Below, piece by piece: positions 13,101-48,451 of a stretch of 64,000 bases of DNA. This stretch comes from a bacterium (GTDB taxonomy: Bacteria > Omnitrophota > Gorgyraeia > Zapsychrales > Zapsychraceae), in NCBI GenBank assembly GCA_030429765.1, contig JAUIER010000013.1, positions 8,759 through 72,758 on the forward strand, written 5' to 3'. Positions within the stretch are counted from its first letter, which is position 1. Every line of letters begins with the position of its first letter. The notes beneath the pieces were generated by a model. That model made no database searches. It was not told the DNA's origin and saw nothing but the letters and a program-made list of their open reading frames with translations. Position numbers and translations under genes: made by a program.

Positions 13101-13132
13101 ACCGGTCCTAAATCCCTGAAAATACACACCGT

Positions 13133-13276: not shown

Positions 13277-13397
13277 TGAGCCAAAATCAGTAACCAATTG
13301 ATTTCAGACAATTTATAAAAAATTTGCCTGCCAAAACCGCAAATTTTTCATAGATTTGAGCAAATTTTTAACATTCAAAACGATAAAGGAGTCCTGA

Positions 13398-16876: not shown

Positions 16877-16942
16877 CTACTTACCCGCCATGAGGTTAGG
16901 TAAAGTTTTCGGAATTAATTGTTCATCCCCAAGGAGTCGATC

Positions 16943-17989: not shown

Positions 17990-18056
17990 AGAGTTAGTTT
18001 GTTTTTAGTGATTCGAGTTTCGAAGTAAATAGATAAAATGGAAACAGTTTTTAAAA

Positions 18057-18086
18057 GCCTCCGTGTCGATCGCGGAGGCTTTTTTC
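18057..18086 (+). terminator. Rho-independent terminator ending the nrdAB operon
   Basis: GCCTCCG-tgtcgatcg-CGGAGGC stem followed by TTTTTT. Confidence 0.7.
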
Positions 18087-18101
18087 CATGAGGAATCCAA
18101 C

Positions 18102-19160: not shown

Positions 19161-19663
19161 TTTTTACTGTCAGAATTATCGATATACTACTCATACAATG
19201 GGCTAAATTAATATGTTTGATTTATTTTCTAGCTCTATGTTTGGCTTTTTCTTCTCTGGCTCACGCCGATGTCAAAGAAGCCGAGCAGTTTTTTCTGAAG
19301 TACCAAGAGTTGTGGAATTCATTCGACATCGAAGCTGCTGATCTATATACGGATAATACTAAATTTTTGGGAAAACGTGTCTATCCTAACGGTGTTGTTC
19401 GATCTATAGATTTGCCAGCTCCGTATCTAAAGGACTTAATTCGAAACACGATGCCCCTGGCACGATTGAAAAATGATAGGACGGAGTATAGTAATGTAAA
19501 GTACGAGATTACAGAGTTAGGTGTCAAAATTTCTGCCGATCGCTATTCGACGATGAAATGCTTTACTGATCCAACATTCTATATCATTATCAAAAAAATT
19601 GATGGAGAGTACAAAATCGTCGAGTCATATGGAACGTCGCAACCGCAGTCGAATTGTCAGTAA
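19154..19663 (+). CDS. Hypothetical secreted protein, NTF2/SnoaL-like fold suspected
   Basis: Second AT-rich gene of the islet. It has a hydrophobic N-terminal signal ending AHA and a roughly 130-aa mature domain. The ATG overlaps the previous stop (ATGGTAG). Confidence 0.45.
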   Translation: MVVFTVRIIDILLIQWAKLICLIYFLALCLAFSSLAHADVKEAEQFFLKYQELWNSFDIEAADLYTDNTKFLGKRVYPNGVVRSIDLPAPYLKDLIRNTMPLARLKNDRTEYSNVKYEITELGVKISADRYSTMKCFTDPTFYIIIKKIDGEYKIVESYGTSQPQSNCQ

Positions 19664-19706
19664 CTGTAATCATTTCTTACAGGAACAGATCTGGTAAAAG
19701 TACAGC

Positions 19707-19871
19707 ATGCGAATCATTATTTATACTTTGCTAGCTATCTTAGCCTTCGTCGTGCTGATCACAGAATTATGGCACTACGATCCAGCAGAACCGGAGATAG
19801 GCGATAGTTATTCATCCGGCTACACCAATGTGATCAAACGGATGGCTCCGCTTGAGGACGAGGGATATTAG
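19707..19871 (+). CDS. Possible 54-aa single-TM micro-protein (missing from the ORF track because of its length)
   Basis: ATG at 19707, then MRIIIYTLLAILAFVVLITELW followed by an acidic tail. No homolog recognised. Confidence 0.25.
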   Translation: MRIIIYTLLAILAFVVLITELWHYDPAEPEIGDSYSSGYTNVIKRMAPLEDEGY

Positions 19872-19881
19872 AGGGCTCAAT

Positions 19882-20754
19882 GTGAAACGCCGCACGCGTA
19901 TTGTTATTTATGTAGGCATAGTACTGATGGTTTATGTCGGCCTGTTGCTGACCAATGTGATACCGTCGATGCTGTGGCGGGGGATTCGCGGGCCTCGGGG
20001 CGACGAACGGCGGATCGTGACGGTCCGGATCGAGTCGGACTATCAGCGTACACCTACCCGGATCAGGATTCTTGCCCCCAAGAATATGGAAGCAGGCCGG
20101 CGTTATCCGGTGTTGTATCTGTTGCCCTCAGTACCGCAGATCCTCGACCCGTGGTGGAACAGTCCGTTGATCGAGATCATCCGCTTCGATGTCGCCGATC
20201 GGCATCAGGTGATCTGTGTCGCGCCGACATACAGCGATATGCCGTGGTACGCCGATCATCCCACCGATCCCAAGATTCGTCAGGAAAGCTATCTGATCAA
20301 GGAGATTATTCCGTATATCGATGCCAATTATCCAACCATGGCCGAAGGGCGGGGGCGGTATCTGCTTGGGTACAGTAAATCCGGAACGGGCGCGTTCACT
20401 CTATTATTGCGGCATCCCGATCTGTTTTATCGGGCGCTCTCATGGGATGCCCCGATGTTCTTTCCGTTCAAGGAAATCCCCGGCTCTCAGCTCACCAAGA
20501 TCTACGGCACGCCGGAAAACTTCCGGCACTATCAATTACCCATCCTGTTCCGCCGGCGTTCTGCCGACTTTACAGGACCCGACCCGCGATTTATACTAAT
20601 GGGGTTCAGCGAGAATCCGATGGCGATCCATCGCGTGCACGAATACATGAACGCGTACAACATCACCCATAAATACGACAACACCACGCAAACCCGTCAC
20701 AACTGGCACAGCGGCTGGTTTGAGCGGGCGATCGGGCACTTATTTGACGAATGA
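19882..20754 (+). CDS. Putative esterase (alpha/beta hydrolase, esterase-D/enterochelin esterase-like), membrane-anchored or secreted
   Basis: PF00756-like pattern (YPVLYLLP ... RYLLGYSKSGTGAF ... SWDAPMF) and an N-terminal hydrophobic segment. The start is uncertain; the track ORF begins at a TTG at 19852. Confidence 0.55.
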   Translation: MKRRTRIVIYVGIVLMVYVGLLLTNVIPSMLWRGIRGPRGDERRIVTVRIESDYQRTPTRIRILAPKNMEAGRRYPVLYLLPSVPQILDPWWNSPLIEIIRFDVADRHQVICVAPTYSDMPWYADHPTDPKIRQESYLIKEIIPYIDANYPTMAEGRGRYLLGYSKSGTGAFTLLLRHPDLFYRALSWDAPMFFPFKEIPGSQLTKIYGTPENFRHYQLPILFRRRSADFTGPDPRFILMGFSENPMAIHRVHEYMNAYNITHKYDNTTQTRHNWHSGWFERAIGHLFDE

Positions 20755-25900: not shown

Positions 25901-26326
25901 ATGCCGTGCAGCGACAGCTCATCCAGTATGGTAATCCAGCTGGATCATGAGGAAAAATTTGTCGGTTTTGAATACGCGAAGATCACCTGCGGCCGGGAGA
26001 TCACCGGATCCACCGGTCTCAATGAATATTTTAAGGGATGGGAATTATCGCGCATTATCGATTGTCCTTACAATCAAATCTGCACCGCTCTGGATGTTCA
26101 GGAAGAAGAGAATCAATATATCCTGTATCTGGAATGGGACGTGCTTCGCGCTGGACTCGCGCTGTATCTGGGAATCGACGATCCGCACATCGACACCGAC
26201 CGATGTTTAATCACCTCTATTGAACACGCCGATAAGGGCATTGAGATCGCTCAGGTGGTCTTGCCCCCTAAAGAAATGCCCAAAATCCTGCCATGCAGTC
26301 TCGGTGATACCGATCCGAATCAGTAA
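25901..26326 (+). CDS. Hypothetical protein
   Basis: An ORF with an upstream TATACT -10 element. No family recognised. Confidence 0.35.
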   Translation: MPCSDSSSSMVIQLDHEEKFVGFEYAKITCGREITGSTGLNEYFKGWELSRIIDCPYNQICTALDVQEEENQYILYLEWDVLRAGLALYLGIDDPHIDTDRCLITSIEHADKGIEIAQVVLPPKEMPKILPCSLGDTDPNQ

Positions 26327-28826: not shown

Positions 28827-29843
28827 ATGATTCAGTCCACGCACAAATCTCATCAGCTCAAGGCGGTCGGGATGATTTCCGGCGGTCTGGACAGCATTCT
28901 GGCGGCCAAGATCGTCAAAGACCTCGGGGTTGAGGTCCATGGCCTGTTTATGAAGATGCCCTGGGGCTGTTGCGACCAGGCCCACGCCCAGCAGGCCGCC
29001 GACAGTATTGGTATCCCATTGATTATTTTACAGCTCGACGAACGTTATCTGGAGACGGTCCGTAATCCGCGGCACGGGCGAGGGACCGCCATGAATCCCT
29101 GTGTGGATTGCCGTGTCCATATGTTCCGCCGTGCAGCCCGGTATATGGAGCACATCGGTGCGGATTTTGTCTTTACCGGCGAAGTAGTGGGGCAGCGGAT
29201 GATGTCCCAAAAAAAGCAGTCGATGGCCCTGATCGCCCGGCAGAGCGGTCTGGAAGGACGCTTGTTGCGTCCATTGTGCGCGGGAATTCTGGAGCCGACT
29301 GTCATGGAAGAGGCCGGTCAGATCGATCGGCAACGCATGATGCGTATTACGGGGCGCTCCCGTAAACCTCAGTATTTGCTGGCCAAACGCTATAGTGTTG
29401 AAGGCTATAGCGCGCCGGCCGGTGGATGTTTGTTAACGGATCAAAAATTTTCGCGGCGGATCAAAGATGTCTTCGAGCACGGTTATCGAAATTTCAGAGA
29501 GACGATTTCATTGAAGTGGGGACGTCACTACCGATTGTCGCCTGAATTCAAATGCATACTGGGGCGCAACATGGACGAGAATATGGCCCTGATTCGTTAC
29601 GCCCATCCCGACGATATCATTATGCAACTGCCGGACAATCACGGCCCAACATTAATCTTAAAAGGGATCAATCCGTCTCCCCAAATCCTTGCCACAGCCG
29701 CGGGAATTCTTCAACATTTTTCCAAACACAAAGGACAGGCGTCTATAGCTATGAAATACTGGCCTGTGAAGCAGCGGAATCTGGTTCAGCCGATCCAGGC
29801 TCAGGAACTGTCCGCGGATGATCTCAACCCCATGAAGGTATAA
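28827..29843 (+). CDS. PP-loop ATP pyrophosphatase, divergent MnmA/ThiI-like tRNA thiolation enzyme
   Basis: PP-loop KAVGMISGGLDS, then NPCVDCR...IGADFVFTGE, which resembles MnmA NPCxxCN...lGADxxATGH. Not a canonical MnmA. Confidence 0.5.
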   Translation: MIQSTHKSHQLKAVGMISGGLDSILAAKIVKDLGVEVHGLFMKMPWGCCDQAHAQQAADSIGIPLIILQLDERYLETVRNPRHGRGTAMNPCVDCRVHMFRRAARYMEHIGADFVFTGEVVGQRMMSQKKQSMALIARQSGLEGRLLRPLCAGILEPTVMEEAGQIDRQRMMRITGRSRKPQYLLAKRYSVEGYSAPAGGCLLTDQKFSRRIKDVFEHGYRNFRETISLKWGRHYRLSPEFKCILGRNMDENMALIRYAHPDDIIMQLPDNHGPTLILKGINPSPQILATAAGILQHFSKHKGQASIAMKYWPVKQRNLVQPIQAQELSADDLNPMKV

Positions 29844-29844: not shown

Positions 29845-31155
29845 ATGGTTACGATTCAAAAGACTTTAAACGCGTTACGCGAAGTGATGCATCCGTCGAG
29901 CACACGCAACATTGTCGACGAAGGCCTGGTGCGAAATGTGGTGATCGAAGAGGGCAAGGTTACATTTGATTTGATGGTACATTCGTCCGCGCCGTCGATC
30001 GTGCATGAGATTGAAATGCGCGCCCGCCAGGCGGTGGAGGCGCTGGACTCGGTCGAGCAAGTGGTGTGTCAGGTCAAGACGTCAGCGCAGCCGGCTCAAA
30101 ACGCTCGGCCCCAGGTTCAATCTCCGATCAATCAGGTTAAAAATATTATTGCGGTCTCTTCCGCCAAGGGAGGCGTCGGCAAGTCCACGATGGCCGCGCA
30201 TCTGGCGCGGGAGCTCAAACAACAGGGCTACAACGTCGGTCTCGTCGACGTGGATATCTACGGCCCATCATTGCCGACGCTGTTTAATTTGCCCAAGGTC
30301 GACATTTATATGAACGAACAGAAGCTGTTGATGCCGGTCGAACAGGACGGGCTTAAGCTGATGTCGTTTGGTTTTTTGTTAGGCGACAAGCCCGCGGTGA
30401 TGCGCGGGCCGGTGGTGACCCGCTACGTCCAGCAAATTCTCCTGAATACAGATTGGGGGGCGCTGGATTATCTGCTGATTGATATGCCGCCGGGCACCGG
30501 CGATGTGCAGTTGACGATCACGCAATCGATCCGGCTCACGGGCGCGGTGATCATTACGACGCCGCACACATTGTCACTGATTGATGTGGCGCGCGGTATT
30601 TTGATGTTTGAAAAAGTCGAGGTCCCGATCGTCGGGGTGATTGAAAATATGAGCTATCTGCAAACCGGCGAGGACAGGCATTATGTGTTTGGACAGTCGT
30701 CGGTCCAGGGATTGTCCGAGCGATTTGGAGTTGAGATCCTTGGTGAGATTCCGATCCTTCCGGAGCTGAGCGGCGTAGCCGGTCCTTCTCAATCGACGCC
30801 GGCGATTCAGTCGGCGGTCAAACAAATGATCCGGAGTGTCGACACAGTTCGATCGAGTTCGCAGGATATTCCAACCATCAAATTTGACGAGCGAAAAGTT
30901 CAGTTGTCATGGAAAAACGGGGAGCACTGGTCGGTCAATAATTTCGATCTAAGAATGATTTCGCAGGACGCGCTGAGTGTCAATGAGATAACCGGTCAGC
31001 GTATTTTGAAGGAAGCGGATGTGCCCAAAGACATTGCGGCCGAGGAGATCACGCCGCTGGGCAATTACGGGATCGGGATTGCGTGGAATGACGGACATTC
31101 CGCGGCGATCTACACCTACAAGAATATCCGTCAAATTGCCACGATAACGACATAA
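29845..31155 (+). CDS. apbC: Fe-S cluster carrier ATPase of the Mrp/NBP35/ApbC family with N-terminal DUF59 (MIP18-like) and C-terminal DUF971 domains
   Basis: Deviant Walker A box (SAKGGVGKST) and a ParA-like core. The N-terminal MIP18-like domain contains LREVMHPSSTRNIVDEGLV. The C-terminal WNDGHSAAIYTY resembles DUF971. Confidence 0.85.
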   Translation: MVTIQKTLNALREVMHPSSTRNIVDEGLVRNVVIEEGKVTFDLMVHSSAPSIVHEIEMRARQAVEALDSVEQVVCQVKTSAQPAQNARPQVQSPINQVKNIIAVSSAKGGVGKSTMAAHLARELKQQGYNVGLVDVDIYGPSLPTLFNLPKVDIYMNEQKLLMPVEQDGLKLMSFGFLLGDKPAVMRGPVVTRYVQQILLNTDWGALDYLLIDMPPGTGDVQLTITQSIRLTGAVIITTPHTLSLIDVARGILMFEKVEVPIVGVIENMSYLQTGEDRHYVFGQSSVQGLSERFGVEILGEIPILPELSGVAGPSQSTPAIQSAVKQMIRSVDTVRSSSQDIPTIKFDERKVQLSWKNGEHWSVNNFDLRMISQDALSVNEITGQRILKEADVPKDIAAEEITPLGNYGIGIAWNDGHSAAIYTYKNIRQIATITT

Positions 31156-31157
31156 AT

Positions 31158-31472
31158 CTACGAATTTAACAGCTGTTCCAATTCACCGTTGGTGTGCATT
31201 TCGGTGATGATATCGCATCCGCCGATAAATTCTCCCTTGACATACAATTGAGGGATCGTCGGCCAGTCTGAATATTCTTTGATGCCCGCGCGGATTTCAT
31301 CATCTTCCAAGACATTTGACGATTTAAAATCGGCATTATAGTGCTGCAGCAGATTGACGGCCTGAGAAGAAAAACCGCACATCGGCATTTCAGGCGTGCC
31401 TTTCATATACAAAAAGATCTTGTTATTCTTCACATCATTGTCGATACGTTGACGAATTTCCTCGTTCATCAC
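31158..31472 (-). CDS. grxD: Monothiol (CGFS) glutaredoxin, Grx4 family
   Basis: Contains the PMCGFSSQ active-site motif. Length is 104 aa. Confidence 0.85.
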   Translation of the reverse strand: MMNEEIRQRIDNDVKNNKIFLYMKGTPEMPMCGFSSQAVNLLQHYNADFKSSNVLEDDEIRAGIKEYSDWPTIPQLYVKGEFIGGCDIITEMHTNGELEQLLNS

Positions 31473-31512
31473 TTTCTCCTTACCGTTGATTATTTCCTTT
31501 AAATTCTTTGGA

Positions 31513-31773
31513 TTAAAAACCGAACTGGGCGCGGTTTTCTTCCCACTTAGCGGGCGTAAACGTTTTCAGGCCCAGGGCGTGCACACTGCTGGCGAAGGCC
31601 TCTTTGAGCGGCTGCATCACCATCTTGTGCTGTTTGACCAGCATCATGCCTTCAAACGTCGACGAGATGACGAAGGCCTGCAGATGTTCGCCGTCATTCA
31701 TCGGATCGAGGACGATGGCCTCGGAATCCGGGATATTTGATTCGATGATTTTTTTGATGTCGTCGAGTGTCAT
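31513..31773 (-). CDS. bolA: BolA family protein
   Basis: 86 aa with a BolA-like class II KH fold signature (VISSTFEGMMLVKQHKMV). It is adjacent to the CGFS glutaredoxin. Confidence 0.7.
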   Translation of the reverse strand: MTLDDIKKIIESNIPDSEAIVLDPMNDGEHLQAFVISSTFEGMMLVKQHKMVMQPLKEAFASSVHALGLKTFTPAKWEENRAQFGF

Positions 31774-32009
31774 GGTGTGGGGTTATCCTTTAACCAGTTG
31801 ATGATATCATCGGATTCATACATGATCGTTCCGTCGATGTCGAGCGCCGGGACCTGTGTTTTTCCTCCGGCCTCCAGAAGTTCATCGCGAAAGCGGGGAT
31901 TATCCAGTACATTCTTGAGATCGAGGGTGATTTCATTGTCATGCATAAATCCCAAAACTTTTTGGCAATAGGGACATGTTTCCATGTAGTAAAGCGTTAA
32001 ATTTGGCAT
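31770..32009 (-). CDS. Dithiol glutaredoxin (CPYC)
   Basis: 79 aa with LTLYYMETCPYCQKV. Confidence 0.75.
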   Translation of the reverse strand: MPNLTLYYMETCPYCQKVLGFMHDNEITLDLKNVLDNPRFRDELLEAGGKTQVPALDIDGTIMYESDDIINWLKDNPTP

Positions 32010-32027
32010 ATGCGGGATCCTTTCAGC

Positions 32028-32984
32028 TCATATTTTACCCGGGACACGTTGCCGGTCAATAAGTTTTTCGGCGAAGTCGATCACCTGATCCTCTAACTGG
32101 ACGTTCTGCAGCGAGTTGATCTCCTGCACACAGGTCGGCGAGGTGACATTGATCTCAGTCAGGTAATCGCCCAGCATATCGATTCCGACAAAATACAGGC
32201 CCATCTCCTGCAGGTAGGGCTTGAGCCGCGCGCAGACATCCAAATCGCGTTCAGTGATTTCCGTGGGCTGGGCCGAGCCGCCGGCCATAAAGTTATTGCG
32301 AAAGTCGTCCTGACCGTGCACCCGCAACACGGCACCGATGGGTTCACCGTTAAGGAGCAGGATGCGTTTATCACCGATTTCCGCTTCTTTGATGTATTGC
32401 TGAACAATGATCTCGGTCCGCCATTTGTTGGTCAATTTCGATAGGCTCTCAATGACGTAATTGGTGTTTGAAAGTTTGATGATCCCTTGGCCGCCGAAGC
32501 CATTCGCCGGTTTGGCGACGACCATTTTGTATTCATCGATAAATTTGACAATCTCCTCGCGCTGGGAACTCACCAGCGTCGGAGGGAGAAGGTCGGTAAA
32601 TTGGGTGGCCCAGATCTTTTCATTACATTGACGGATGCCGGCCGGTTCATTGATGACCGGGATGTGTTTGGGTAACAAGTCCAGCAGCCACGTCTGCATC
32701 AGATAGGCCTCATCAAACGGCGGATCGGTTCGAATGAACACGATATCGATATCATTCTCTGTGAGAATCACGGATTGCTCATCAGTGAATGGTTTGTCGG
32801 GATTCATCTGTGCGGTGACCCGGGTCGCACTCATCAGCACCTGACCGTTTTTGCGTGTCGTGCCGCCTTCATGCAGCAGATGCACGGTGTGGCCGCGACG
32901 CTGGGCGCCTATCATGAAGATAAAAGATGTATCTTTGTGAACGTTCCACGTGTCGTACTTGTCAACCAGAAAGACAAAGTTCAT
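32028..32984 (-). CDS. gshB: Glutathione synthetase (ATP-grasp)
   Basis: Prokaryotic GshB N-domain plus ATP-grasp core. The start is set at MNFVFL, where an AGGAAA RBS is present. Length is 318 aa. Confidence 0.85.
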   Translation of the reverse strand: MNFVFLVDKYDTWNVHKDTSFIFMIGAQRRGHTVHLLHEGGTTRKNGQVLMSATRVTAQMNPDKPFTDEQSVILTENDIDIVFIRTDPPFDEAYLMQTWLLDLLPKHIPVINEPAGIRQCNEKIWATQFTDLLPPTLVSSQREEIVKFIDEYKMVVAKPANGFGGQGIIKLSNTNYVIESLSKLTNKWRTEIIVQQYIKEAEIGDKRILLLNGEPIGAVLRVHGQDDFRNNFMAGGSAQPTEITERDLDVCARLKPYLQEMGLYFVGIDMLGDYLTEINVTSPTCVQEINSLQNVQLEDQVIDFAEKLIDRQRVPGKI

Positions 32985-33009
32985 GGGATTTTCCTTGTGA
33001 AATGTTGGA

Positions 33010-34290
33010 CTACGAGGCCGCTTCCAGCTGGATGATTTCCCGGTGCGCGGAGATGCCCGCGATCCGGGCGAGGATGCGGTACACATCAAATATATTGATA
33101 TCCGGATGAGCGACGCAATCGCCGTACTTGCTTGAATGAGGGCAGATGGTCTGAAAGGTCATGCCCTTGGAATTCAAATTATCACGTTGCCCCTTGGATC
33201 CGTGCATCCGGTAAAATCCGCCGACGAGCTTGTTTTCGATCTGATAGATCACCACTTCGCTGACCTGATCAGCCACGTTGTAGATGGTCGGGACACCTTC
33301 CTGCAGCAGGTAACGGGTGATCGACTGAGAACTTTTACCGACGGACAGCGCGTTCCGTTTCTTTCGATTGAGATTGAGGATGTCGTCCGGTGATTCGATG
33401 CTCATGACGCCCATGCCATACGTGCCGGAATCACTCTTGAGAACCACATAGGGTTTTTCGGTGATGCCGTGTTCGTCATACTTGGTCTGAATGGATTTGA
33501 GCAGATCGGCGGTGGCATCCGCCAGTTTTTGCCGCTCGGCCTGATCATTGACATCGGAATTCTCAATCACCCGGAACTGACAGCTCAACAGCCATGGATC
33601 GACGTCAATCAGCCGGGCAAAATCGGCCATCACATCTTCAGTGTGCGCGAAATGATGCGACTTAAGCCGTGAATGCCATCCGGCCGCGATCGACGGATAG
33701 ATCGGAACTCGGGCCGATTTCAAGATATCGGGAATGCCCGTGGTGAGGTCATTGTTGAGTATGATCAGACAAAATTTTTCACGTCCGGCTTCGTAGTCGT
33801 CGAGAATTTTTTTAAAGCAGTGCAGGCGCACCGGTTGGCCGGTGGCGGTTTCCAGTTCGACAAATCGTGTTTTTTCACAGAAGTCGGGTTGAATCGTGAG
33901 GAAGGTCGCGATCTTGACATTGAAGCCGGCCTTCTCGGCGATATTCTGCAGGATGCGGATGTTTTCCAGATACCACGTGTTACGCGTGTGTTCTTCGGCG
34001 ATGATCAGGATGTTCCGGCAGCCGGAGACGCGCCGCTGAATCGCTTCACGCATAAAGGTGACGGCGTCATCCAAACCATGCTCACAGAGATTGTTAAAGC
34101 CGGCTGGAAAGATATTGGTATCGACCACGGACATCTTGAAGCCCGAGTCGCGAATGTCGACCGACGAATAGATCGGCAGCTCATTGGCGCCCTCCATCGA
34201 GGTCAGCCAATTATGGATCTGTTCCTGATTGGTCTTGATGTGATCAATCAGGGTATTCATGGTTGGTGATTGGGAATGAATAGGATTCAT
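33010..34290 (-). CDS. Putative glutamate-cysteine ligase of the divergent (Acidithiobacillus-type) family
   Basis: 426 aa located immediately upstream of gshB in the same orientation. It is not E. coli-type GshA. The assignment rests on context plus a resemblance to the non-canonical bacterial GCL family. Confidence 0.45.
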   Translation of the reverse strand: MNPIHSQSPTMNTLIDHIKTNQEQIHNWLTSMEGANELPIYSSVDIRDSGFKMSVVDTNIFPAGFNNLCEHGLDDAVTFMREAIQRRVSGCRNILIIAEEHTRNTWYLENIRILQNIAEKAGFNVKIATFLTIQPDFCEKTRFVELETATGQPVRLHCFKKILDDYEAGREKFCLIILNNDLTTGIPDILKSARVPIYPSIAAGWHSRLKSHHFAHTEDVMADFARLIDVDPWLLSCQFRVIENSDVNDQAERQKLADATADLLKSIQTKYDEHGITEKPYVVLKSDSGTYGMGVMSIESPDDILNLNRKKRNALSVGKSSQSITRYLLQEGVPTIYNVADQVSEVVIYQIENKLVGGFYRMHGSKGQRDNLNSKGMTFQTICPHSSKYGDCVAHPDINIFDVYRILARIAGISAHREIIQLEAAS

Positions 34291-34355
34291 GATTTAAATA
34301 TGTTTATATACACTTAAATGGCTATTATGCCGAAAACCCGACGGATTGTCCAGCA

Positions 34356-35591
34356 TTATCTTTGCTTTCGAGTCTGATAGTCAACGATCAAGGTGCCGAT
34401 GGTGTCGCCTTTGACGTTGATCATGGTGCGCACGGCATCCAGCAAGCGGTCAATGGGATACAGGATCGCGATGGCCTCGGCCGGTAGTCCCACCGATTGT
34501 AACACCATCACCATGGTCACCATCCCGGCACTGGGGATGCCCGGCGCGCCGATCGAGGCCAGGATCGACATCGTGAACACGATCAGCTGCTGGGCGAGAT
34601 TTAATTCAATACCCACCAGATTGGCGATAAAGATGGCGGCGATGGCCTCGTACAGCGCCGTCCCGTCCATGTTGATCGTCGCTCCGAGCGGGAGCACAAA
34701 ACCGGCGATGTCTTTATCGGCCTCGAGATTCTCCTCGAGACAACGGTAGGTGATCGGCAATGTCGCCGCCGACGAACTCGTAGAGAAGGCGGTGATCAGC
34801 GCCTGACGCACGCCGCGGTAATATCGGAACAGCGACGTGTCGGAAAATGTCTTGAGGATGACCGGCAGGGTCACAAAGCCGTGAAACAGTGTCGCCCCGA
34901 CAACGACCAGGATAAATTTTCCCAGCGCGGCAAACAGCGATACATCCTGGGTCGCGACCAGACCCGTGAGCAGACAGAACAGGCCCAACGGCAAGAGCGC
35001 CATGATCCACTGCACAATCAGCATGATCAGCTCGAAGATCTCATTGAGGACATTGAGCGTGGTTTGCGCCCGGCCGCCCATGACGACCAATCCGATGCCG
35101 AGGAAAATCGCAAACATGATCGTCGGAAGGATTTGGCCTTGGGCCATCGAGGCCACCGGGTTCATAAACAGATTGGTCAGGAAGTTTTCGATAAACTCCA
35201 ACGGTGACATGTGTTGGACCGTCATGGTCGTCATCGAGTCCTTGAACATATCCATCTGCAGTCCGACGCCCGGTTGAAACAGATTCACGACGGTGAGTCC
35301 CAGAAAGACCGCCAGCATGGTCGTCGAGATATAGTACAGGAGCGTCATCCGCCAGACGCTGGACATCTGGGCGTGGGCCCGCAGGTTGGCAATACCCACC
35401 GTGATGGATGTAAAGACCAGCGGGATCAGGATCATCTTCAGCAAGCTGATAAAGATCTTGGCGATCACCCCGAACAGATGCAGGGCGTGCTTGATCACGG
35501 GGGCATCCGTCCCGACGAAGGCAAAGACAAGGCCCGTGACAATCCCGAGCACCGTCCCGATCAGGATTTGAGTGTTGTAGGTTAGTCGCAT
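34356..35591 (-). CDS. Dicarboxylate/amino acid:cation symporter (DAACS family)
   Basis: 411-aa multi-TM protein with the GltP/SstT-like DAACS signature (AAIFIANL... PSAGMVTM). Confidence 0.8.
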   Translation of the reverse strand: MRLTYNTQILIGTVLGIVTGLVFAFVGTDAPVIKHALHLFGVIAKIFISLLKMILIPLVFTSITVGIANLRAHAQMSSVWRMTLLYYISTTMLAVFLGLTVVNLFQPGVGLQMDMFKDSMTTMTVQHMSPLEFIENFLTNLFMNPVASMAQGQILPTIMFAIFLGIGLVVMGGRAQTTLNVLNEIFELIMLIVQWIMALLPLGLFCLLTGLVATQDVSLFAALGKFILVVVGATLFHGFVTLPVILKTFSDTSLFRYYRGVRQALITAFSTSSSAATLPITYRCLEENLEADKDIAGFVLPLGATINMDGTALYEAIAAIFIANLVGIELNLAQQLIVFTMSILASIGAPGIPSAGMVTMVMVLQSVGLPAEAIAILYPIDRLLDAVRTMINVKGDTIGTLIVDYQTRKQR

Positions 35592-35706
35592 ACAATCTCA
35601 ATTATTCGTTGACGGTTGAGCAAATCAATCTATGATCTATGTTACACCATTTAGGACGTTGACCGAAGAATTAATCCATGATTGTGAGCACAAGCGGAGG
35701 TCTAAG

Positions 35707-35973
35707 ATGACAGACAAAATTCGTGAATTAATCGCTGCGCATATCAATGTGAGCCATTTTGAAATTATGGACGACTCGCATAAGCACGCGCATCACGCCG
35801 GCGCGAGGGAATCCGGCGGCGGGCATTACCTGGTGCTGGTGGTCAGTGATGATTTTGAGGGCGTGTCACGTGTCCGTCGTCATCGGATGATCTACGAGGC
35901 GCTTAAATCCATCAAAGACCATATTCACGCCTTGGGAATCCGCGCTTACACATCTGACGAATACCAGCGTTAA
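35707..35973 (+). CDS. BolA-family protein (IbaG/YrbA-like)
   Basis: 88 aa with a GGGHY...V.S..F core and a GGAGG RBS. Confidence 0.6.
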   Translation: MTDKIRELIAAHINVSHFEIMDDSHKHAHHAGARESGGGHYLVLVVSDDFEGVSRVRRHRMIYEALKSIKDHIHALGIRAYTSDEYQR

Positions 35974-37484: not shown

Positions 37485-38885
37485 TTAGGCCGCCGCTGAA
37501 GCCGTGGCCCGTGCCGTAAATTCGGCCTGGGCCCGTCGGGCCGCGTTGCGGACTATCTCCGGCAGGGCCGGATGGATATAAATCATATTGAGCAGATCAT
37601 CGAGCGTGCCGTCCTTGTTCATAAACGCGATGATCATATGGATCATATTGGACGCCTCGGGGCCGACAATATGCGCGCCGAGGATCCGCCGCGTCTTCGC
37701 GCAGATCAGGATCTTACAAAAGCCGTGATCGGAAAGCAGGGCCATGCCCATCGCGCTCTTGGCGTAGGGATTGACACCGCTGATGTAATCGACACCTTCG
37801 GCCTTGAGTTCATCTTCGGTTTTTCCAACACCCGCCACCTGCGGATTGGAAAAAATCGCATGCGGCACCGGCGGATACTGGATGGGCCGGTCGTGCGGAT
37901 TGGCGAAGGCCGATTCAAACAGATATTCACCTTCAAAATTAACGCTGTGCCGGAAGAAATACCGGCCGATGCAGTCGCCCAGCGCGTAAACACCGTCGAC
38001 ACTGGTTCGCAGGTGATCATCGACGTCAATGAATCCTTTGGATGTCACTTTAATGTCGGTGTTTTCCAGTTTAAGGGTGTCACTGTTGGGAACTACGCCG
38101 GTGGCGATCAGTAAGGCGTCACACTGTATGGTTTTTGATTCTTCATGTTGTTTGTAGGTGATGCGGAAAATGCCATTGCGGTAATCGACCTTGGTTGGAC
38201 AGGCCTTGATGTGACAACTGTACTTTTCAGAGAAGACACGCGTAAACTCCTGGGCGACCTGTGAATCTTCCCCGCGTAGGAATCTGGACCGGACCATAAA
38301 TTGAACGTCACACCCGAGCGCCGCGTATGCGTGTCCTAATTCAACGGCGATGTAACTGGCCCCGACAACCACCATTTTCTGCGGGAGTTTGGTCAGGCGC
38401 AATGCTTCGGTGCTGGTCATGAACGGGGTGTCTTTGAGTCCCGGGATGTCCGGAATGTGCGGCCGGGCCCCTACGCCAATCACGATGCGTTCGGCGGTTA
38501 ATTGTTCGCCGTTGACCTCAACAACCTTGTTGGTCAGGAAGCTGGCGGTTCCGTGATAGTAATCAATATTGGGATTTTTGGAATAACCGACGACGATACT
38601 GTCGGAATCATGATCGACCGTGCTGGAGATACGTGTCACCAGCTTTTGAAAATCGACTGAAAAGTGCGGATTGTTATGAATATCAAACTTAGAGGCCTCG
38701 CGGATCTCTTGAGCCACATCGGCCGGATGAATTAACATCTTGGAGGGGATGCATCCGCGATTCAGACATGTCCCGCCAAGGCGGTCTTTTTCGATGACGG
38801 CGACTTTTAAGCCCATCCGAGCCGCCGGTGAGGTGATTTTAGATCCGCCGCCGGACCCGATGACGATGACATCGTAATTTTTCAT
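37485..38885 (-). CDS. Class I pyridine nucleotide-disulfide oxidoreductase of the dihydrolipoyl dehydrogenase/glutathione reductase family
   Basis: GGTCLNRGCIPSK redox-active disulfide, N-terminal FAD motif VIVIGSGGG, and C-terminal HPALPE dimer-interface His-Pro. Confidence 0.8.
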   Translation of the reverse strand: MKNYDVIVIGSGGGSKITSPAARMGLKVAVIEKDRLGGTCLNRGCIPSKMLIHPADVAQEIREASKFDIHNNPHFSVDFQKLVTRISSTVDHDSDSIVVGYSKNPNIDYYHGTASFLTNKVVEVNGEQLTAERIVIGVGARPHIPDIPGLKDTPFMTSTEALRLTKLPQKMVVVGASYIAVELGHAYAALGCDVQFMVRSRFLRGEDSQVAQEFTRVFSEKYSCHIKACPTKVDYRNGIFRITYKQHEESKTIQCDALLIATGVVPNSDTLKLENTDIKVTSKGFIDVDDHLRTSVDGVYALGDCIGRYFFRHSVNFEGEYLFESAFANPHDRPIQYPPVPHAIFSNPQVAGVGKTEDELKAEGVDYISGVNPYAKSAMGMALLSDHGFCKILICAKTRRILGAHIVGPEASNMIHMIIAFMNKDGTLDDLLNMIYIHPALPEIVRNAARRAQAEFTARATASAAA

Positions 38886-41559: not shown

Positions 41560-41928
41560 ATGATTTGGATTAGATTAGCCAGTTTTTTTATGCTGAGCGG
41601 CGTCGCTCTGGGAGCGATGGGCGCGCACGCGCTTAAAAAGCGTCTGACCGCGGACAGCCTGGCCAGTTTTGAGACCGGGGTCATGTATCAGATTATTCAC
41701 GCGTTGGCCCTGTTTGTCATTGCCTGGTTGATCACACAGAGCTCAGATCCCAAGGTCTCGATCGCCGGCGCTGTGATCACGGCTGGTATTGTGCTATTCA
41801 GTGGATCCATTTATGTGCTGGCATTAACCAATATCAAGTGGGTTTGGCCATTGACCCCGTTGGGCGGAATCGCATTTATGATCGGATGGGGCATTTTATT
41901 ATTGAGTCAATATGATAAGTTCGGATAA
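41560..41928 (+). CDS. DUF423 (YgdD-like) membrane protein
   Basis: LSGVALGAMGAHAL...YQIIHALAL is typical of DUF423. Confidence 0.7.
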   Translation: MIWIRLASFFMLSGVALGAMGAHALKKRLTADSLASFETGVMYQIIHALALFVIAWLITQSSDPKVSIAGAVITAGIVLFSGSIYVLALTNIKWVWPLTPLGGIAFMIGWGILLLSQYDKFG

Positions 41929-43213
41929 TCAAACAACAGTTTCCTTCTATACCCTTGGCTGTCGATTGAATCAAAGCGAGACGGCCTCAATTGAGCAGAG
42001 TTTCGCCAAGGACGGGTTTCGGATCGTTGATTTCAAGCAACCGGCGGATGTGGTTATTATCAACACGTGTACGGTCACGGAAAACGGCGACGCGGACACA
42101 CGCCGCCTGGTCAACAAGGTCAATCGTATAAATCCAGCGGCCCGCATCGCTTTGATCGGATGCCAGGCGCAGGTCCAGAAATCCAAACTCACCGAGTTGC
42201 CGAATGTCGCGTGGGTCGTCGGCAATCAACGCAAGATGGACATCGCCGAGATCGTCGCGCAGCTGCCGCAGCCGGCTGAACCGACAGTGATCGCACCGAC
42301 CATCACCCGCGATCCGTTTACCATTCCAACTGCCAGTATAGACTCCCGGCACACACGGGCCAACATCAAGATCCAGGATGGATGTGATTTTTTCTGTTCG
42401 TTTTGCGAGATTCCTTACGCGCGGGGACGGGCGCGCTCCCGGGTGTTCGACGATATTCTGACGGAAGCCCGCGCGCTGACCGCGGCCGGACATCAGGAGT
42501 TGGTGATCACCGGGATCAATGTCGGCACCTATCAATACCAAGGTTACGGATTTATGGATGTCATCGACGCGCTTGAGCAGATTGACGAGCTTAAACGTAT
42601 TCGTATTTCGTCGATCGAGCCCACGACCATTCCATTCGCACTTTTTGAGCGGATGTCAAAAACATCCAAGTTATGCCGACACCTGCATATTCCGTTGCAA
42701 AGCGGGGATGACGCAGTGCTCGCGGCCATGAAGCGCAAATACACCACCCGGGAATTCCTGGATTTTATTCAGCACGTGGAGGACACGGTTGATGAGGTTT
42801 GCATCGGCACAGACGTTATCGTCGGATTTCCGGGAGAGAGTGAAACGCAATTTCAGGCCACCGAGGATTTTCTGCGTGAAGCGCCGGTAGATTATTTTCA
42901 TGTCTTCAGCTATTCCCGACGCTATCTGGCCAAGAGTCAGGACATGGCCGGCGAACAGACACCCCCGATTATTCAGGAGCGCAGTCGACGGCTGAGAGAG
43001 TTGGGGCAACGCAAGCGGCGTATGTTTCATGAATCGCTGGTCGCGACGGATCAGCTGGTGCTGTTTGAGCAGCTGAAAAATGGACGCCTGACCGGTATCA
43101 CGGACAATTATGTCCGGGTGGCCGTGGATGAAACGGAAGCTTTGTGTAATCATTTCCGCGCAGTCAATCTACAGTCGATTGAAGGGGACGTTATTTTCGG
43201 AAAAATCAAATAA
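41912..43213 (+). CDS. mtaB: Radical-SAM methylthiotransferase of the MiaB/RimO/MtaB family, MtaB-like
   Basis: MTTase N-domain (FYTLGCRLNQSE...VIINTCTV), a radical-SAM CDFFCSFC motif, and a C-terminal TRAM domain. Confidence 0.75.
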   Translation: MISSDNQTTVSFYTLGCRLNQSETASIEQSFAKDGFRIVDFKQPADVVIINTCTVTENGDADTRRLVNKVNRINPAARIALIGCQAQVQKSKLTELPNVAWVVGNQRKMDIAEIVAQLPQPAEPTVIAPTITRDPFTIPTASIDSRHTRANIKIQDGCDFFCSFCEIPYARGRARSRVFDDILTEARALTAAGHQELVITGINVGTYQYQGYGFMDVIDALEQIDELKRIRISSIEPTTIPFALFERMSKTSKLCRHLHIPLQSGDDAVLAAMKRKYTTREFLDFIQHVEDTVDEVCIGTDVIVGFPGESETQFQATEDFLREAPVDYFHVFSYSRRYLAKSQDMAGEQTPPIIQERSRRLRELGQRKRRMFHESLVATDQLVLFEQLKNGRLTGITDNYVRVAVDETEALCNHFRAVNLQSIEGDVIFGKIK

Positions 43214-47941: not shown

Positions 47942-48451
47942 ATGCGAGACTACATCGCAAAATTACCACTGGTTCAGTGTTTTACCGTCCAGGGACGACG
48001 GACACCCGGATTCTATGCGATCACGCTGGCCCTCGGGCTGGCCCTTGTCCTTCAGTGTCTCAAGCTGATCCATCCCGCGACACAACAATCATTTCTCAAG
48101 CAATTTCATTGTCAAACCCGATCGTTCGCCGTGTGGAGTCTGCGTCAGACAGTGCCGAGTATGTACAGTTTCGAAAATCAGGTCTGGTGGAGCCGGGCGC
48201 CGTTGGATGGTCGGCCGACGTTTACCCAGTCGGATCTTGACGCGGGACGCTACCACGTATGGCTCAATCACTTTCCGTTGCACTTCGTGACGTATAATTT
48301 TTACCGTGATCTGTTTTTTATGGAGAGTGACGAAAGTTACCTGCATCTGGAATCGAGTTTTCAGCATCAAAACCTGAGTTCTTCCTACAAACTCGAGCGC
48401 GATCATGACGTGGTCCGTATCATCCCAATGAGAGGGGCGGGGGATGAGTAA
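47942..48451 (+). CDS. Hypothetical protein
   Basis: ORF translationally coupled to the downstream membrane-protein gene. No family recognised. Confidence 0.35.
   Translation: MRDYIAKLPLVQCFTVQGRRTPGFYAITLALGLALVLQCLKLIHPATQQSFLKQFHCQTRSFAVWSLRQTVPSMYSFENQVWWSRAPLDGRPTFTQSDLDAGRYHVWLNHFPLHFVTYNFYRDLFFMESDESYLHLESSFQHQNLSSSYKLERDHDVVRIIPMRGAGDE

What the first reader, a model, noticed from the sequence alone, without database searches (positions are those of the whole stretch)
29845..35973. Unusually complete Fe-S trafficking and glutathione gene neighbourhood, including a triple-domain ApbC and a non-canonical GshA
Within 6 kb lie an ApbC/Mrp fused to both DUF59 (MIP18-like) and DUF971, a CGFS monothiol glutaredoxin, a BolA, a CPYC glutaredoxin, gshB, a divergent 426-aa protein in the gshA position, a DAACS amino-acid symporter (plausibly for Glu/Cys supply), and a divergent second BolA-family gene. 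Grx4-BolA heterocomplexes and Mrp/NBP35 are established Fe-S carriers, but it is uncommon for them all to be encoded together with the GSH biosynthesis genes. The DUF971 fusion on ApbC is functionally unexplained.
Basis: partly seen in the sequence, partly recalled or inferred. Interest (0 to 1): 0.55.

Follow-up and report, generated by a model that had tools for sequence, protein, structure and literature searches.

The report
Glutathione/Fe-S gene cluster with cysteine-free HCF101
All the reported glutathione and iron-sulfur trafficking genes are present and belong to known families, but the "ApbC" is an HCF101-type ATPase that has lost every cysteine this family normally uses to hold an iron-sulfur cluster.

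Summary
On the minus strand a tight six-gene operon encodes a DAACS transporter, GshA, GshB, a CPYC glutaredoxin, BolA and a CGFS Grx4. It converges on a plus-strand pair: a ThiI-like PP-loop/NFACT-R_2 gene followed by a DUF59-ParA-DUF971 gene. A second bolA is transcribed divergently.

The "non-canonical GshA" is the curated family TIGR02049/PF08886, which has a solved structure (3k1t). The "triple-domain ApbC" has the HCF101 architecture already described in PVC bacteria.

The gene order recurs in 9 of 10 related Omnitrophota-type loci and in none of 158 Mrp loci from other lineages. Unrelated flanking genes are conserved too, so much of this is inherited synteny.

The window protein has one non-conserved Cys in 436 residues. 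Eighty-eight of 120 homologues keep seven conserved Cys: one in DUF59, one in the P-loop, the ParA CxxC, and the DUF971 CxCxxC. It therefore cannot be a canonical [4Fe-4S]-bridging carrier, yet it is under purifying selection.

I infer that it is an ATP-driven adaptor that uses clusters held by Grx4/BolA/GSH. It is a new variant of a known kind, of moderate interest.

The parts
28827..29843 (+). ThiI-like PP-loop ATPase fused to NFACT-R_2 (DUF814). It is a predicted tRNA 4-thiouridine synthase and a likely [4Fe-4S] client. Its stop codon lies 1 nt before the next gene's start.
   Evidence: Pfam NFACT-R_2 58.2 bits, tRNA_Me_trans 42.7, ThiI 30.0. SGGLDS, C48-C49, C92xxC95 and C201 are invariant in 8 orthologues. 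The family and its predicted function are described in PMC4075521. It lies directly upstream of the HCF101-like gene in the window and in L001-L005, L008, L089 and L170, and upstream with insertions in between in L006 and L007.
29845..31155 (+). HCF101-type Mrp/NBP35 P-loop ATPase of 436 aa. Domains: DUF59 at 29866-30063, ParA/NUBPL at 30133-30789, DUF971 at 30880-31128. The only Cys is C75.
   Evidence: Pfam domains. The NCBIfam ApbC equivalog scores 239, below its 348 cut-off. Cys content. Walker A KGGVGKST and Walker B DMPPGTGD are invariant in alignment A1. AF2 mean pLDDT is 80.8 and all three domains fold. dN against L001 is 0.41 for DUF59, 0.22 for ParA and 0.10 for DUF971.
30658..30672 (+). 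Site of the lost ParA CxxC cluster-bridging motif. The window reads ENMSYLQTGEDRHYVFG. Cys-full homologues read ENMSYFxCDxCxKKHYIFG.
   Evidence: Alignments. E. coli-type ApbC (8zkc) has ICSNCGHH at this position.
30961..30978 (+). DUF971 metal-site motif CxCxxC replaced by S373-x-D375-x-x-S378. H418 is retained.
   Evidence: All 32 homologues lacking the motif read S-D-S, and 88 read C-C-C. Among 86 DUF971-bearing cluster representatives, only 2 read SDS.
31158..31472 (-). Monothiol CGFS glutaredoxin (Grx4/GrxD type), the last gene of the operon.
   Evidence: TIGR00365 scores 152, above 117.1. The motif PMCGFSSQ is in the translation.
31513..31773 (-). BolA-family protein of 86 aa. It looks IbaG-like, and the C-terminal VHAL histidine is present.
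   Evidence: PF01722 scores 51.7, above 25.7. Its start overlaps the upstream grx stop by 4 nt. The IbaG resemblance is from memory and was not tested.
31770..32009 (-). Dithiol CPYC glutaredoxin, 79 aa.
   Evidence: PF00462 scores 47.0 and GST_N_3 scores 52.3. The motif TCPYCQ is in the translation.
32028..32984 (-). Glutathione synthase GshB (ATP-grasp), 318 aa.
   Evidence: NF003573 scores 330, above 272. TIGR01380 scores 324.9, above 299.
33010..34290 (-). Glutamate-cysteine ligase of the TIGR02049/PF08886 ('T. ferrooxidans') type, 426 aa.
   Evidence: PF08886 scores 424.2 over profile positions 3-402 of 402. TIGR02049 scores 378.3, above 293.9. PDB 3k1t matches at E = 4.6e-92. There is weak ATP-grasp-like similarity to GshB (E = 0.015 for that single comparison).
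34356..35591 (-). DAACS/SDF family symporter, the first gene of the operon. Its substrate is unknown.
   Evidence: PF00375 scores 388.4. GltP scores 230 against a 638 cut-off, DctA scores 203 against 513, and SstT scores 132 against 308. The gene holds this position in L002, L004, L170, L171 and L172, but not in L007 or L169.
35707..35973 (+). Second BolA, the canonical BolA_H type, 88 aa from the likely start. The ORF as listed begins at 35632. It is divergent from the operon.
   Evidence: PF01722 scores 89.4. GGAGG lies 7 nt before the ATG at 35707, and a promoter-like TTGACG-16-TATGAT lies at 35609-35636.
25901..26326 (+). Conserved 141-aa divergent IscU/NifU_N-like protein in the same synteny block.
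   Evidence: There is no Pfam hit. A profile of 9 orthologues hits human ISCU at E = 2.4e-5. C30, C102 and C132 are invariant, and the N-terminal MPCSD is present in 5 of the 9 sequences (MPCND in one more; absent from two that start later in the alignment).
37485..38885 (-). Lpd-like flavoprotein disulfide reductase, conserved in the block. It is a candidate GSSG reductase (inference).
   Evidence: NF004944 scores 625.3, above 619. The glutathione reductase models fall below their cut-offs. The gene is present in L002, L004, L169, L170 and L171.

Best explanation
Shown: the region holds two converging transcription units plus one divergent gene, in a genome whose closest named relatives are Omnitrophota.
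- Unit 1 (minus strand, gaps from -4 to 65 nt): DAACS symporter, GshA (TIGR02049 type), GshB, CPYC glutaredoxin, BolA, CGFS Grx4.
- Unit 2 (plus strand, 1-nt gap): ThiI-like PP-loop/NFACT-R_2 enzyme followed by an HCF101-type DUF59-ParA-DUF971 ATPase.
- A second bolA diverges from Unit 1.

Inferred from family knowledge: Unit 1 makes glutathione and the glutathione-dependent [2Fe-2S] carriers, namely the Grx4 homodimer and Grx4-BolA heterodimers. It also encodes a dithiol glutaredoxin for disulfide reduction, for example of the class I ribonucleotide reductase encoded upstream.

Shown: the HCF101-type protein keeps an intact deviant Walker A, Walker B and all three folded domains, and it is under purifying selection. 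It has lost the ParA CxxC, the DUF971 CxCxxC (now SxDxxS), the DUF59 Cys and the P-loop Cys.

Inferred: it cannot bridge a [4Fe-4S] cluster as ApbC, Nbp35 or Cfd1 do, nor bind one through the three cysteines that plant HCF101 needs. I propose that it works as an ATP-dependent dimerising adaptor or targeting factor. DUF59 and DUF971 would serve as docking modules. The protein would take clusters held by Grx4/BolA/GSH (and perhaps the nearby IscU-like protein) to apo-clients. The co-transcribed ThiI-like enzyme, with its invariant CxxC + C site, is the most obvious client. A Mrp/MinD-family precedent is ATPase-type HypB, which assists HypA without carrying an Fe-S cluster itself.
For: - Family assignments and thresholds.
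- Operon geometry.
- Cys loss: 1 Cys in 436 aa. Of the 120 best homologues, 88 have CxxC + CxCxxC and 32 have neither, always with S-D-S in place of CxCxxC. The 12 closest have also lost the DUF59 and P-loop Cys.
- Rarity: only 2 of 86 DUF971-bearing 50%-identity cluster representatives read SDS.
- Constraint: the ATPase motifs are invariant, dN is 0.10 in DUF971 against 0.22 in ParA, and overall dN/dS is about 0.09-0.14 with dS saturated. AF2 folds all three domains.
- Synteny: Grx4-BolA-(Grx)-GshB-GshA follows the HCF101-like gene in 9 of 10 related loci and in 0 of 158 control Mrp loci. In all 8 Cys-less loci the HCF101-like and grx4 genes abut (from -4 to 167 nt). In the 3 Cys-full loci that have grx4, other genes are inserted between them.
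- Literature: CXXC is a defining signature of the family and essential in vivo (PMC6345978). GLRX3 transfers [2Fe-2S] clusters to NUBP1 (PMC8007109). DUF971 is cofit with Mrp and BolA (10.1101/072470). ThiI+DUF814 keeps the ThiI CxxC + Cys (PMC4075521), and rhodanese-less ThiI-type enzymes need a [4Fe-4S] cluster (PMC9825150, abstract).
- Structural neighbours of the model include ATPase-type HypB, with TM-score about 0.84 on the target.
Against: - No experiment bears on this protein.
- The HCF101-like gene and the Grx/GSH operon are convergent, not co-transcribed.
- Unrelated genes (ilvBN, an ABC-2 transporter, dus) are conserved in the same block. The adjacency may be vertical inheritance within one family-level clade.
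- Cys-full relatives (L007, L171, L172) have the same GSH/Grx neighbourhood. The neighbourhood therefore predates the Cys loss and does not explain it.
- The abutting-versus-inserted contrast rests on 8 versus 3 phylogenetically non-independent loci.
- The ThiI-like gene is missing next to the HCF101-like gene in L169, L171 and L172.
- I could not check whether the same genome also has a canonical CxxC Mrp elsewhere.
- Plant HCF101 shows that loss of CxxC does not by itself abolish cluster binding.
Confidence: 0.45

Rival explanations
1. The two modules are functionally separate and neighbours only by descent. The GSH/Grx4/BolA operon serves general thiol and Fe-S homeostasis. The thiI-like/HCF101-like pair serves tRNA thiolation or another ATPase function with no special link to Grx4/BolA.
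For: - The orientation is convergent, with stop codons 2 nt apart.
- Unrelated genes (AHAS, ABC-2/ABC, dus) are conserved in the same order in L002, L004, L169 and L170.
- Insertions between the two modules are tolerated in L007, L171 and L172.
- L006 has the thiI-like/HCF101-like pair without any Grx/GSH genes.
Against: - Independent genetic data link DUF971 with Mrp and BolA (10.1101/072470).
- A CGFS glutaredoxin transfers clusters to an NBP35-type protein in humans (PMC8007109).
- 9 of 10 related loci keep the adjacency down to about 50% protein identity, against 0 of 158 control loci.
Confidence: 0.3
2. The block is mainly an oxygen and thiol-redox defence island. Glutathione, the CPYC glutaredoxin and the Lpd-like reductase would support class I ribonucleotide reductase and peroxide detoxification. 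The Fe-S trafficking reading would then be secondary.
For: - AhpC/Redoxin, Fe/Mn SOD and class I RNR large and small subunits lie upstream in the window and in L002, L004, L008, L169 and L170.
- A cytochrome bd oxidase is inserted in L007.
- A flavoprotein disulfide reductase is conserved downstream.
- Aerobic or microaerophilic Omnitrophia are described in PMC10066038.
Against: CGFS Grx4 and two BolA proteins are Fe-S and iron-homeostasis factors rather than general reductases. This reading is also not exclusive of the best explanation.
Confidence: 0.25
3. The cysteine-free HCF101-like protein still carries an Fe-S cluster. It would use non-cysteine ligands (H241, D375, H418, Ser) and/or glutathione thiolates supplied by the neighbouring pathway.
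For: - The replacement is always S-D-S, with His418 kept.
- Q241H distinguishes the 32 SDS forms (H 100%) from the 88 Cys-full forms (Q 99%) within the 120 Omnitrophota-type homologues. H also occurs at this position in Cys-full forms of other lineages.
- Cys to Asp needs two nucleotide changes.
- DUF971 is the most conserved domain.
- Plant HCF101 binds [4Fe-4S] without CxxC (PMC2805927).
- Glutaredoxins set the precedent for glutathione as a cluster ligand.
Against: Plant HCF101 needs three cysteines (C128, C347, C419), and all three equivalents are absent here. No Fe-S protein with an all-O/N protein ligand set is known to me. The invariant S-D-S may simply reflect common ancestry.
Confidence: 0.1
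4. The protein is a decaying relic whose Fe-S function has been taken over by other carriers, with no specific remaining role.
For: The Cys loss is progressive: first CxxC + CxCxxC, then the DUF59 Cys, then the P-loop Cys. DUF59 evolves fastest (dN 0.41).
Against: Full-length ORFs occur in 32 separate 90%-identity clusters spanning about 50-85% identity. The ATPase motifs are invariant. dN/dS is about 0.1 and DUF971 is highly conserved. The gene has a 1-nt junction with the upstream gene.
Confidence: 0.05

Closest known systems
HCF101 (chloroplast and mitochondrial Fe-S scaffold) and the bacterial HCF101-like proteins of the PVC group
   Same: Both have the DUF59-ParA-DUF971 architecture (PMC7980591). 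Like land-plant HCF101, the window protein lacks the ParA CxxC and the DUF971 CxCxxC (PMC2805927).
   Different: Land-plant HCF101 keeps the DUF59 Cys (C128), the P-loop Cys (CKGGVGKS) and plant-specific C347 and C419, and needs C128, C347 and C419 to bind [4Fe-4S]. The window protein has none of these. Its DUF971 motif is S-x-D-x-x-S with His kept, whereas plants have D-x-S-x-x-S with His changed to Phe. Most bacterial HCF101-like proteins keep all seven Cys.
ApbC/Mrp (Salmonella, E. coli; PDB 8zkc) and Nbp35/Cfd1/Ind1
   Same: They share the P-loop ATPase fold, the deviant Walker A and an N-terminal DUF59. 8zkc is the best structural hit and the best sequence hit (E = 1.7e-59).
   Different: The window protein has no CxxC, so it cannot bridge a [4Fe-4S] cluster. 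It has an extra DUF971. It scores below the ApbC equivalog cut-off (239 against 348).
ATPase-type HypB (Mrp/MinD family, Thermococcus; PDB 3vx3, 5aun-5auq)
   Same: Both are Mrp/MinD-type ATPases without an Fe-S-bridging CxxC role, and the ATPase domains are close in structure (TM-score about 0.84 on the target). From memory, HypB is an ATP-dependent partner of the metallochaperone HypA. This is an analogy for how the window protein might work, not a membership claim.
   Different: HypB serves nickel insertion into hydrogenase and has no DUF59 or DUF971. No hyp genes are present here.
TIGR02049/PF08886 glutamate-cysteine ligase (Acidithiobacillus ferrooxidans type; PDB 3k1t)
   Same: The match is full length and above the equivalog cut-off. 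The gene lies directly upstream of gshB.
   Different: None of substance was found. It is an ordinary member in a new lineage.
Grx4/GrxD-BolA/IbaG [2Fe-2S] heterodimers of E. coli, and GLRX3-BOLA2 to NUBP1 transfer in the human CIA pathway
   Same: A CGFS glutaredoxin, two BolA paralogues, glutathione and an Mrp/NBP35-family ATPase are all encoded together here. GLRX3-to-NUBP1 transfer is documented (PMC8007109).
   Different: The acceptor ATPase here has no cysteines to receive a cluster. The components are clustered in one locus, which was not seen in 158 other Mrp loci.
ThiI+DUF814 (NFACT-R_2) predicted 4-thiouridine synthases (Burroughs and Aravind 2014, PMC4075521)
   Same: Both have a PP-loop followed by NFACT-R_2, with conserved SGGLDS, CxxC and an internal Cys.
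   Different: That paper reports TusA as the only conserved neighbourhood partner. Here the conserved neighbour is an HCF101-type ATPase.

Membership tests
Mrp/NBP35 (ApbC) Fe-S carrier ATPases | Deviant Walker A GKGGhGK[ST] (PMC6345978) plus Walker B | tested here: met
   The window reads S-A-KGGVGKST, with Ala in place of the first Gly. K108 to T115 and D213 to D220 are invariant in A1. PF10609 scores 272 bits.
Mrp/NBP35 (ApbC) Fe-S carrier ATPases | Conserved CXXC motif that bridges a [4Fe-4S] cluster and is essential in vivo (PMC6345978) | tested here: not met
   ENMSYLQTGEDRHYVFG contains no Cys. E. coli-type ApbC has ICSNCGHH at this position, and 88 of 120 homologues have CxxC.
Mrp/NBP35 (ApbC) Fe-S carrier ATPases | Score at or above the NCBIfam ApbC equivalog cut-off (NF008669) | tested here: not met
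   239.1 bits against a 348 cut-off. MrpORP scores 236.9 against 450.
Mrp/NBP35 (ApbC) Fe-S carrier ATPases | ATP hydrolysis and transient Fe-S cluster binding and transfer | not testable with these tools
   This needs purified protein.
HCF101 type | N-terminal DUF59/FSCA, central ParA and C-terminal DUF971 (PMC7980591) | tested here: met
   All three Pfam domains score above their gathering thresholds. AF2 folds all three.
HCF101 type | CxCxxC motif in DUF971, conserved in bacterial and most eukaryotic HCF101 (PMC7980591) | tested here: not met
   The window has S373-Q-D375-A-L-S378. Land plants also lack the motif, reading DRSAQS.
HCF101 type | The cysteines required for [4Fe-4S] binding in Arabidopsis HCF101: C128 in DUF59, C347 and C419 (PMC2805927) | tested here: not met
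   The equivalent positions are non-Cys: 'SSAPS' aligns with TTPACP and ENMS with ENMC, and there is no Cys in the linker.
HCF101 type | P-loop cysteine (CKGGVGKS), noted as plant-HCF101-specific in PMC2805927 | tested here: not met
   The window has A107. The Cys is present in 107 of 120 bacterial homologues.
TIGR02049/PF08886 glutamate-cysteine ligase | Full-length HMM match above the curated cut-off | tested here: met
   TIGR02049 scores 378.3, above 293.9. PF08886 scores 424 bits over profile positions 3-402 of 402. PDB 3k1t 'Glutamate--cysteine ligase GshA' matches at E = 4.6e-92.
TIGR02049/PF08886 glutamate-cysteine ligase | gamma-Glutamylcysteine synthetase activity | not testable with these tools
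   The family was defined by complementation of an E. coli gshA mutant. That is my recollection of Powles et al. 1996, which I did not read here. The supporting context is that gshB lies 25 nt downstream.
Prokaryotic glutathione synthase GshB | GSH-S_N and GSH-S_ATP domains, with the equivalog cut-off reached | tested here: met
   PF02951 scores 93.4 and PF02955 scores 198.6. TIGR01380 scores 324.9, above 299.
Grx4-family monothiol glutaredoxin | CGFS active site and the equivalog cut-off reached | tested here: met
   The motif PMCGFSSQ is present. TIGR00365 scores 152, above 117.1.
BolA family | PF01722 above the gathering score, with the conserved C-terminal His ligand | tested here: met
   The two genes score 51.7 and 89.4 bits against a 25.7 cut-off. 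VHAL and IHAL are present in the translations. Neither reaches the E. coli BolA equivalog cut-off (35 and 51 against 137).
DAACS (SDF) symporters | PF00375 match, and substrate assignment by an equivalog model | tested here: inconclusive
   The family match is clear (388 bits). The GltP, DctA and SstT models all fall far below their cut-offs, so the substrate (Glu, Cys/cystine, or other) is unknown.
ThiI+DUF814 predicted s4U synthases | PP-loop SGGxDS, the ThiI-type CxxC and internal Cys, and a C-terminal NFACT-R_2 (PMC4075521) | tested here: met
   Pfam architecture. S18-G-G-L-D-S23, C92xxC95 and C201 are invariant.

The most novel reading that the evidence does not exclude
A clade of Omnitrophota has turned an HCF101-type Fe-S carrier into a cysteine-free ATPase. 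In this reading the protein no longer ligates the cluster itself. Instead it works on clusters ligated by glutathione, Grx4 and BolA, either as an ATP-driven docking and insertion factor or by using glutathione thiolates as exogenous ligands. It would be a natural separation-of-function variant that isolates what the ATPase, DUF59 and DUF971 modules do apart from cluster binding. It would also be a bacterial parallel to the Cys reshuffling seen in land-plant HCF101.
Probability: 0.2. Interest if true: 0.65.

Novelty: new variant of a known kind. Interest (0 to 1): 0.42.

Why it matters
The roles of ATP hydrolysis, DUF59 and DUF971 in Mrp/NBP35/HCF101 proteins are still undefined, because in every studied member they are confounded with cluster binding. 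A conserved, selected, cysteine-free HCF101-type protein is a natural experiment. Whatever it still does is the cluster-independent part of the mechanism. It is encoded beside its most plausible partners (Grx4, two BolA proteins, the glutathione pathway and an IscU-like protein) and a plausible client (a ThiI-like enzyme).

The clean co-loss of the ParA CxxC and the DUF971 CxCxxC within this lineage (88 with both, 32 with neither) suggests that the two sites work together. In other lineages, however, the CxxC is lost alone.

Everything else in the finding is useful annotation for an uncultured lineage but is not new biology. That includes the GshA type, the HCF101 architecture and the Grx-BolA pairing.

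Tried and rejected
- Exact look-ups of the window's HCF101-like protein returned no contig, so the source record was not recovered. The organism is assigned only through named homologues (Omnitrophota).
Only two Omnitrophota relatives (L089, L091) were returned. I reused the other 158 loci as negative controls.
- An NJ tree with the motif columns masked did not give one clean SDS clade. Twenty-seven SDS sequences cluster together, P0017, P0048 and P0108 lie beside them, and P0043 and P0064 nest among Cys-full forms. Single versus multiple origin is unresolved, and I make no claim of convergence.
- dN/dS: dS is saturated for every available pair. Only the relative dN per domain is informative.
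- The idea that Cys loss correlates with the presence of the GSH/Grx neighbourhood is rejected. The Cys-full loci L007, L171 and L172 have the neighbourhood too.
- The idea that Q241H is unique to the Cys-less clade is rejected. H also occurs in some Cys-full forms from other lineages.
- Pfam found nothing in the 141-aa ORF. Only a 9-sequence profile reached IscU.
- Rfam and tRNA scans of the window found nothing.
- The consensus scan placed no terminator-like site at the convergent junction at 31155-31160.

Full report
**1. What is there**

ORF listing and HMM scans confirm every gene in the finding.

On the minus strand, six genes lie with gaps of 65, 25, 18, -4 and 40 nt:
- an SDF/DAACS symporter (34356-35591);
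- GshA (33010-34290);
- GshB (32028-32984; the longer TTG-started ORF is not the gene);
- a CPYC glutaredoxin (31770-32009);
- a BolA (31513-31773);
- a CGFS Grx4 (31158-31472).

On the plus strand, a ThiI-like PP-loop/NFACT-R_2 gene (28827-29843) ends 1 nt before the DUF59-ParA-DUF971 gene (29845-31155). The stop codon of that gene lies 2 nt from the Grx4 stop. The "ApbC" therefore converges on the Grx/GSH operon and is not part of it.

A second bolA diverges from the symporter gene. Its likely start is 35707, which has a GGAGG 7 nt upstream and a promoter-like site at 35609-35636. By Pfam score (89 against 52 bits) it is the more canonical BolA, not the divergent one.

**2. The two selling points are known**

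The 426-aa protein matches PF08886 end to end (424 bits). It exceeds the cut-off of the NCBIfam equivalog TIGR02049, "glutamate--cysteine ligase" (378 against 294). It also matches the solved structure 3k1t, "Glutamate--cysteine ligase GshA", at E = 4.6e-92. It shows weak ATP-grasp-like similarity to GshB. It is an ordinary member of a curated family.

The triple-domain architecture is that of HCF101. A 2021 survey (PMC7980591) already reported bacterial FSCA-ParA-DUF971 proteins in PVC bacteria, proteobacteria and Bacteroidetes. All 120 best homologues in the 5.8-billion-protein database carry ParA and DUF971, and at least 119 also carry DUF59. The named ones are Omnitrophota.

DUF971 is not entirely unexplained. 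Standalone DUF971 genes are cofit with Mrp, BolA and YggX in Shewanella and Pseudomonas (bioRxiv 10.1101/072470; PMC12041740).

**3. The neighbourhood is conserved, but only within this lineage**

Among related loci with enough flank, 9 of 10 have Grx4-BolA-(Grx)-GshB-GshA downstream of the HCF101-like gene. These are the window, L002, L004, L007, L008, L169, L170, L171 and L172; the exception is L006. Most also have the symporter, the second BolA, an ABC-2 transporter and an Lpd-like reductase.

None of 158 Mrp loci from other phyla, 13 of which carry DUF971, has any of these genes within 10 kb. The clustering is therefore real and unusual for Mrp genes.

The block also preserves unrelated genes: ilvBN upstream, and the ABC transporter and dus downstream. 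Upstream of those lie AhpC, SOD and class I RNR. Much of the conservation is thus inherited synteny in one family-level clade.

More than 75% of Omnitrophota genomes are reported to encode glutathione synthesis (PMC10066038).

**4.

The window's HCF101-type protein contains one cysteine in 436 residues, C75, and it is not conserved.

In an alignment with its 119 best homologues, 88 have seven conserved cysteines:
- the DUF59 "TTPACP" Cys;
- a P-loop Cys (CKGGVGKS), a feature that PMC2805927 considered unique to plant HCF101;
- the ParA CxxC;
- the DUF971 CxCxxC.

The other 32 lack both CxxC and CxCxxC, all or none. The CxCxxC is always replaced by S-x-D-x-x-S, and the downstream His is kept. 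The 12 closest to the window have also lost the DUF59 and P-loop Cys and hold 0-2 Cys in total.

Among 86 DUF971-bearing representatives of 50%-identity clusters, the S-D-S state occurs in only 2. Plant-type D-S-S occurs in 2, and most read C-C-C-H. Some 15-20 have lost the ParA CxxC alone.

Land-plant HCF101 sequences were retrieved and aligned here. They also lack CxxC and CxCxxC, but they keep the DUF59 and P-loop Cys and have plant-specific cysteines. Three of these (C128, C347, C419) are needed for [4Fe-4S] binding (PMC2805927). None has an equivalent in the window protein.

The CXXC motif is one of the two signatures of the Mrp/NBP35 family and is essential in vivo (PMC6345978). This protein therefore fails a defining test for a canonical Fe-S carrier. 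It also scores below the ApbC equivalog cut-off (239 against 348).

**5. It is not a relic**

- Walker A and Walker B and many other positions are invariant.
- Full-length ORFs exist in 32 separate 90%-identity clusters.
- dN against the closest DNA relative is 0.41 for DUF59, 0.22 for ParA and 0.10 for DUF971. dS is saturated, and the overall ratio is about 0.09-0.14.
- DUF971, which has lost its metal-site cysteines, is the most constrained domain.
- AlphaFold2 folds all three domains (mean pLDDT 80.8).
- No three-domain structure is solved. The nearest are ApbC 8zkc, Cfd1 and ATPase-type HypB.

**6. Mechanism**

These steps are inferred. Unit 1 supplies glutathione through GshA and GshB, with possible substrate import by the DAACS carrier. 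It also supplies the glutathione-dependent [2Fe-2S] carriers: the Grx4 homodimer and the Grx4-BolA heterodimers. From memory, these heterodimers are established in E. coli and eukaryotes. Transfer from GLRX3 to NUBP1 is documented in PMC8007109.

The cysteine-free HCF101-type ATPase most plausibly acts as an ATP-dependent adaptor that brings such clusters to clients. The best client candidate is the adjacent ThiI-like enzyme, which lies 1 nt upstream in the same orientation. It has an invariant PP-loop, CxxC and Cys201, belongs to a family predicted to make s4U (PMC4075521), and resembles rhodanese-less ThiI enzymes that need a [4Fe-4S] cluster (PMC9825150).

In all 8 Cys-less loci the ATPase and grx4 genes abut. 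In the 3 Cys-full loci that have grx4, other genes are inserted between them. This is suggestive, but the loci are not phylogenetically independent.

The rivals are:
- separate modules adjacent only by descent;
- a primarily oxygen and thiol-redox island that supports RNR;
- residual cluster binding through non-Cys or glutathione ligands;
- functional decay.

**7. Verdict**

The neighbourhood and all its families are known kinds. The GshA and the triple-domain fusion are not novel. The cysteine-free HCF101-type ATPase is a new variant of a known kind and the only feature that would surprise a specialist. Interest is moderate.

Noticed in passing
window 25901-26326 (+): A conserved 141-aa ORF with no Pfam hit is a divergent IscU/NifU_N-like protein. 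A 9-sequence profile hits human ISCU at E = 2.4e-5. C30, C102 and C132 are invariant, and the N-terminal MPCSD is present in 5 of the 9 sequences. An 'LPPKELPKILPC' motif sits at the C-terminus rather than at the usual IscU position. The gene lies just before ilvN in most related loci checked.
   Followed up: partly
window 28827-29843 (+): A ThiI-like PP-loop + NFACT-R_2 (DUF814) gene ends 1 nt before the start of the HCF101-type gene. The pairing recurs in most related loci checked (L001-L008, L089, L170). The paper that defined this family (PMC4075521) names TusA as the only conserved neighbourhood association.
   Followed up: partly
window 11905-17989 (+): AhpC/Redoxin, Fe/Mn superoxide dismutase and class I ribonucleotide reductase large and small subunits lie upstream. 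They are conserved in the same order in L002, L004, L008, L169 and L170. This points to an oxygen-exposed lifestyle for this Omnitrophota lineage.
   Followed up: partly
window 37485-38885 (-): A stand-alone Lpd-like flavoprotein disulfide reductase barely passes one dihydrolipoyl dehydrogenase model (625 against 619). No E1 or E2 genes are nearby. It is conserved downstream of the block and is a candidate glutathione-disulfide reductase.
   Followed up: partly
L002 15908-17239 and L004 15825-17183, corresponding to window ~35592-35706: Relatives carry a 443-452 aa HTTM/VKGC-like (vitamin K-dependent gamma-carboxylase-like) gene between the symporter and the second bolA. It is absent from the window, L170 and L171.
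   Followed up: no
window 18001-20000: G+C drops to 0.371 against about 0.52 elsewhere. The region holds ORF 18063-19160, which has only weak Zn-ribbon and HEAT matches. About 8 kb between the RNR small subunit and ilvN is absent from L002, L004 and L170, so it may be acquired DNA.
   Followed up: no
window 48001-50000: AT skew is strongly negative (-0.264) compared with the rest of the window.
   Followed up: no
window 41912-43213 (+): A UPF0004 + radical SAM protein (MiaB/RimO-type methylthiotransferase), another [4Fe-4S] client, is encoded a few kb downstream.
   Followed up: no
homologues P0001-P0120 and plant HCF101 P0123-P0231: The P-loop cysteine (CKGGVGKS) was described as unique to plant HCF101. 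It is present in 107 of 120 Omnitrophota-type HCF101-like proteins. This shared trait may bear on the bacterial origin of eukaryotic HCF101.
   Followed up: partly
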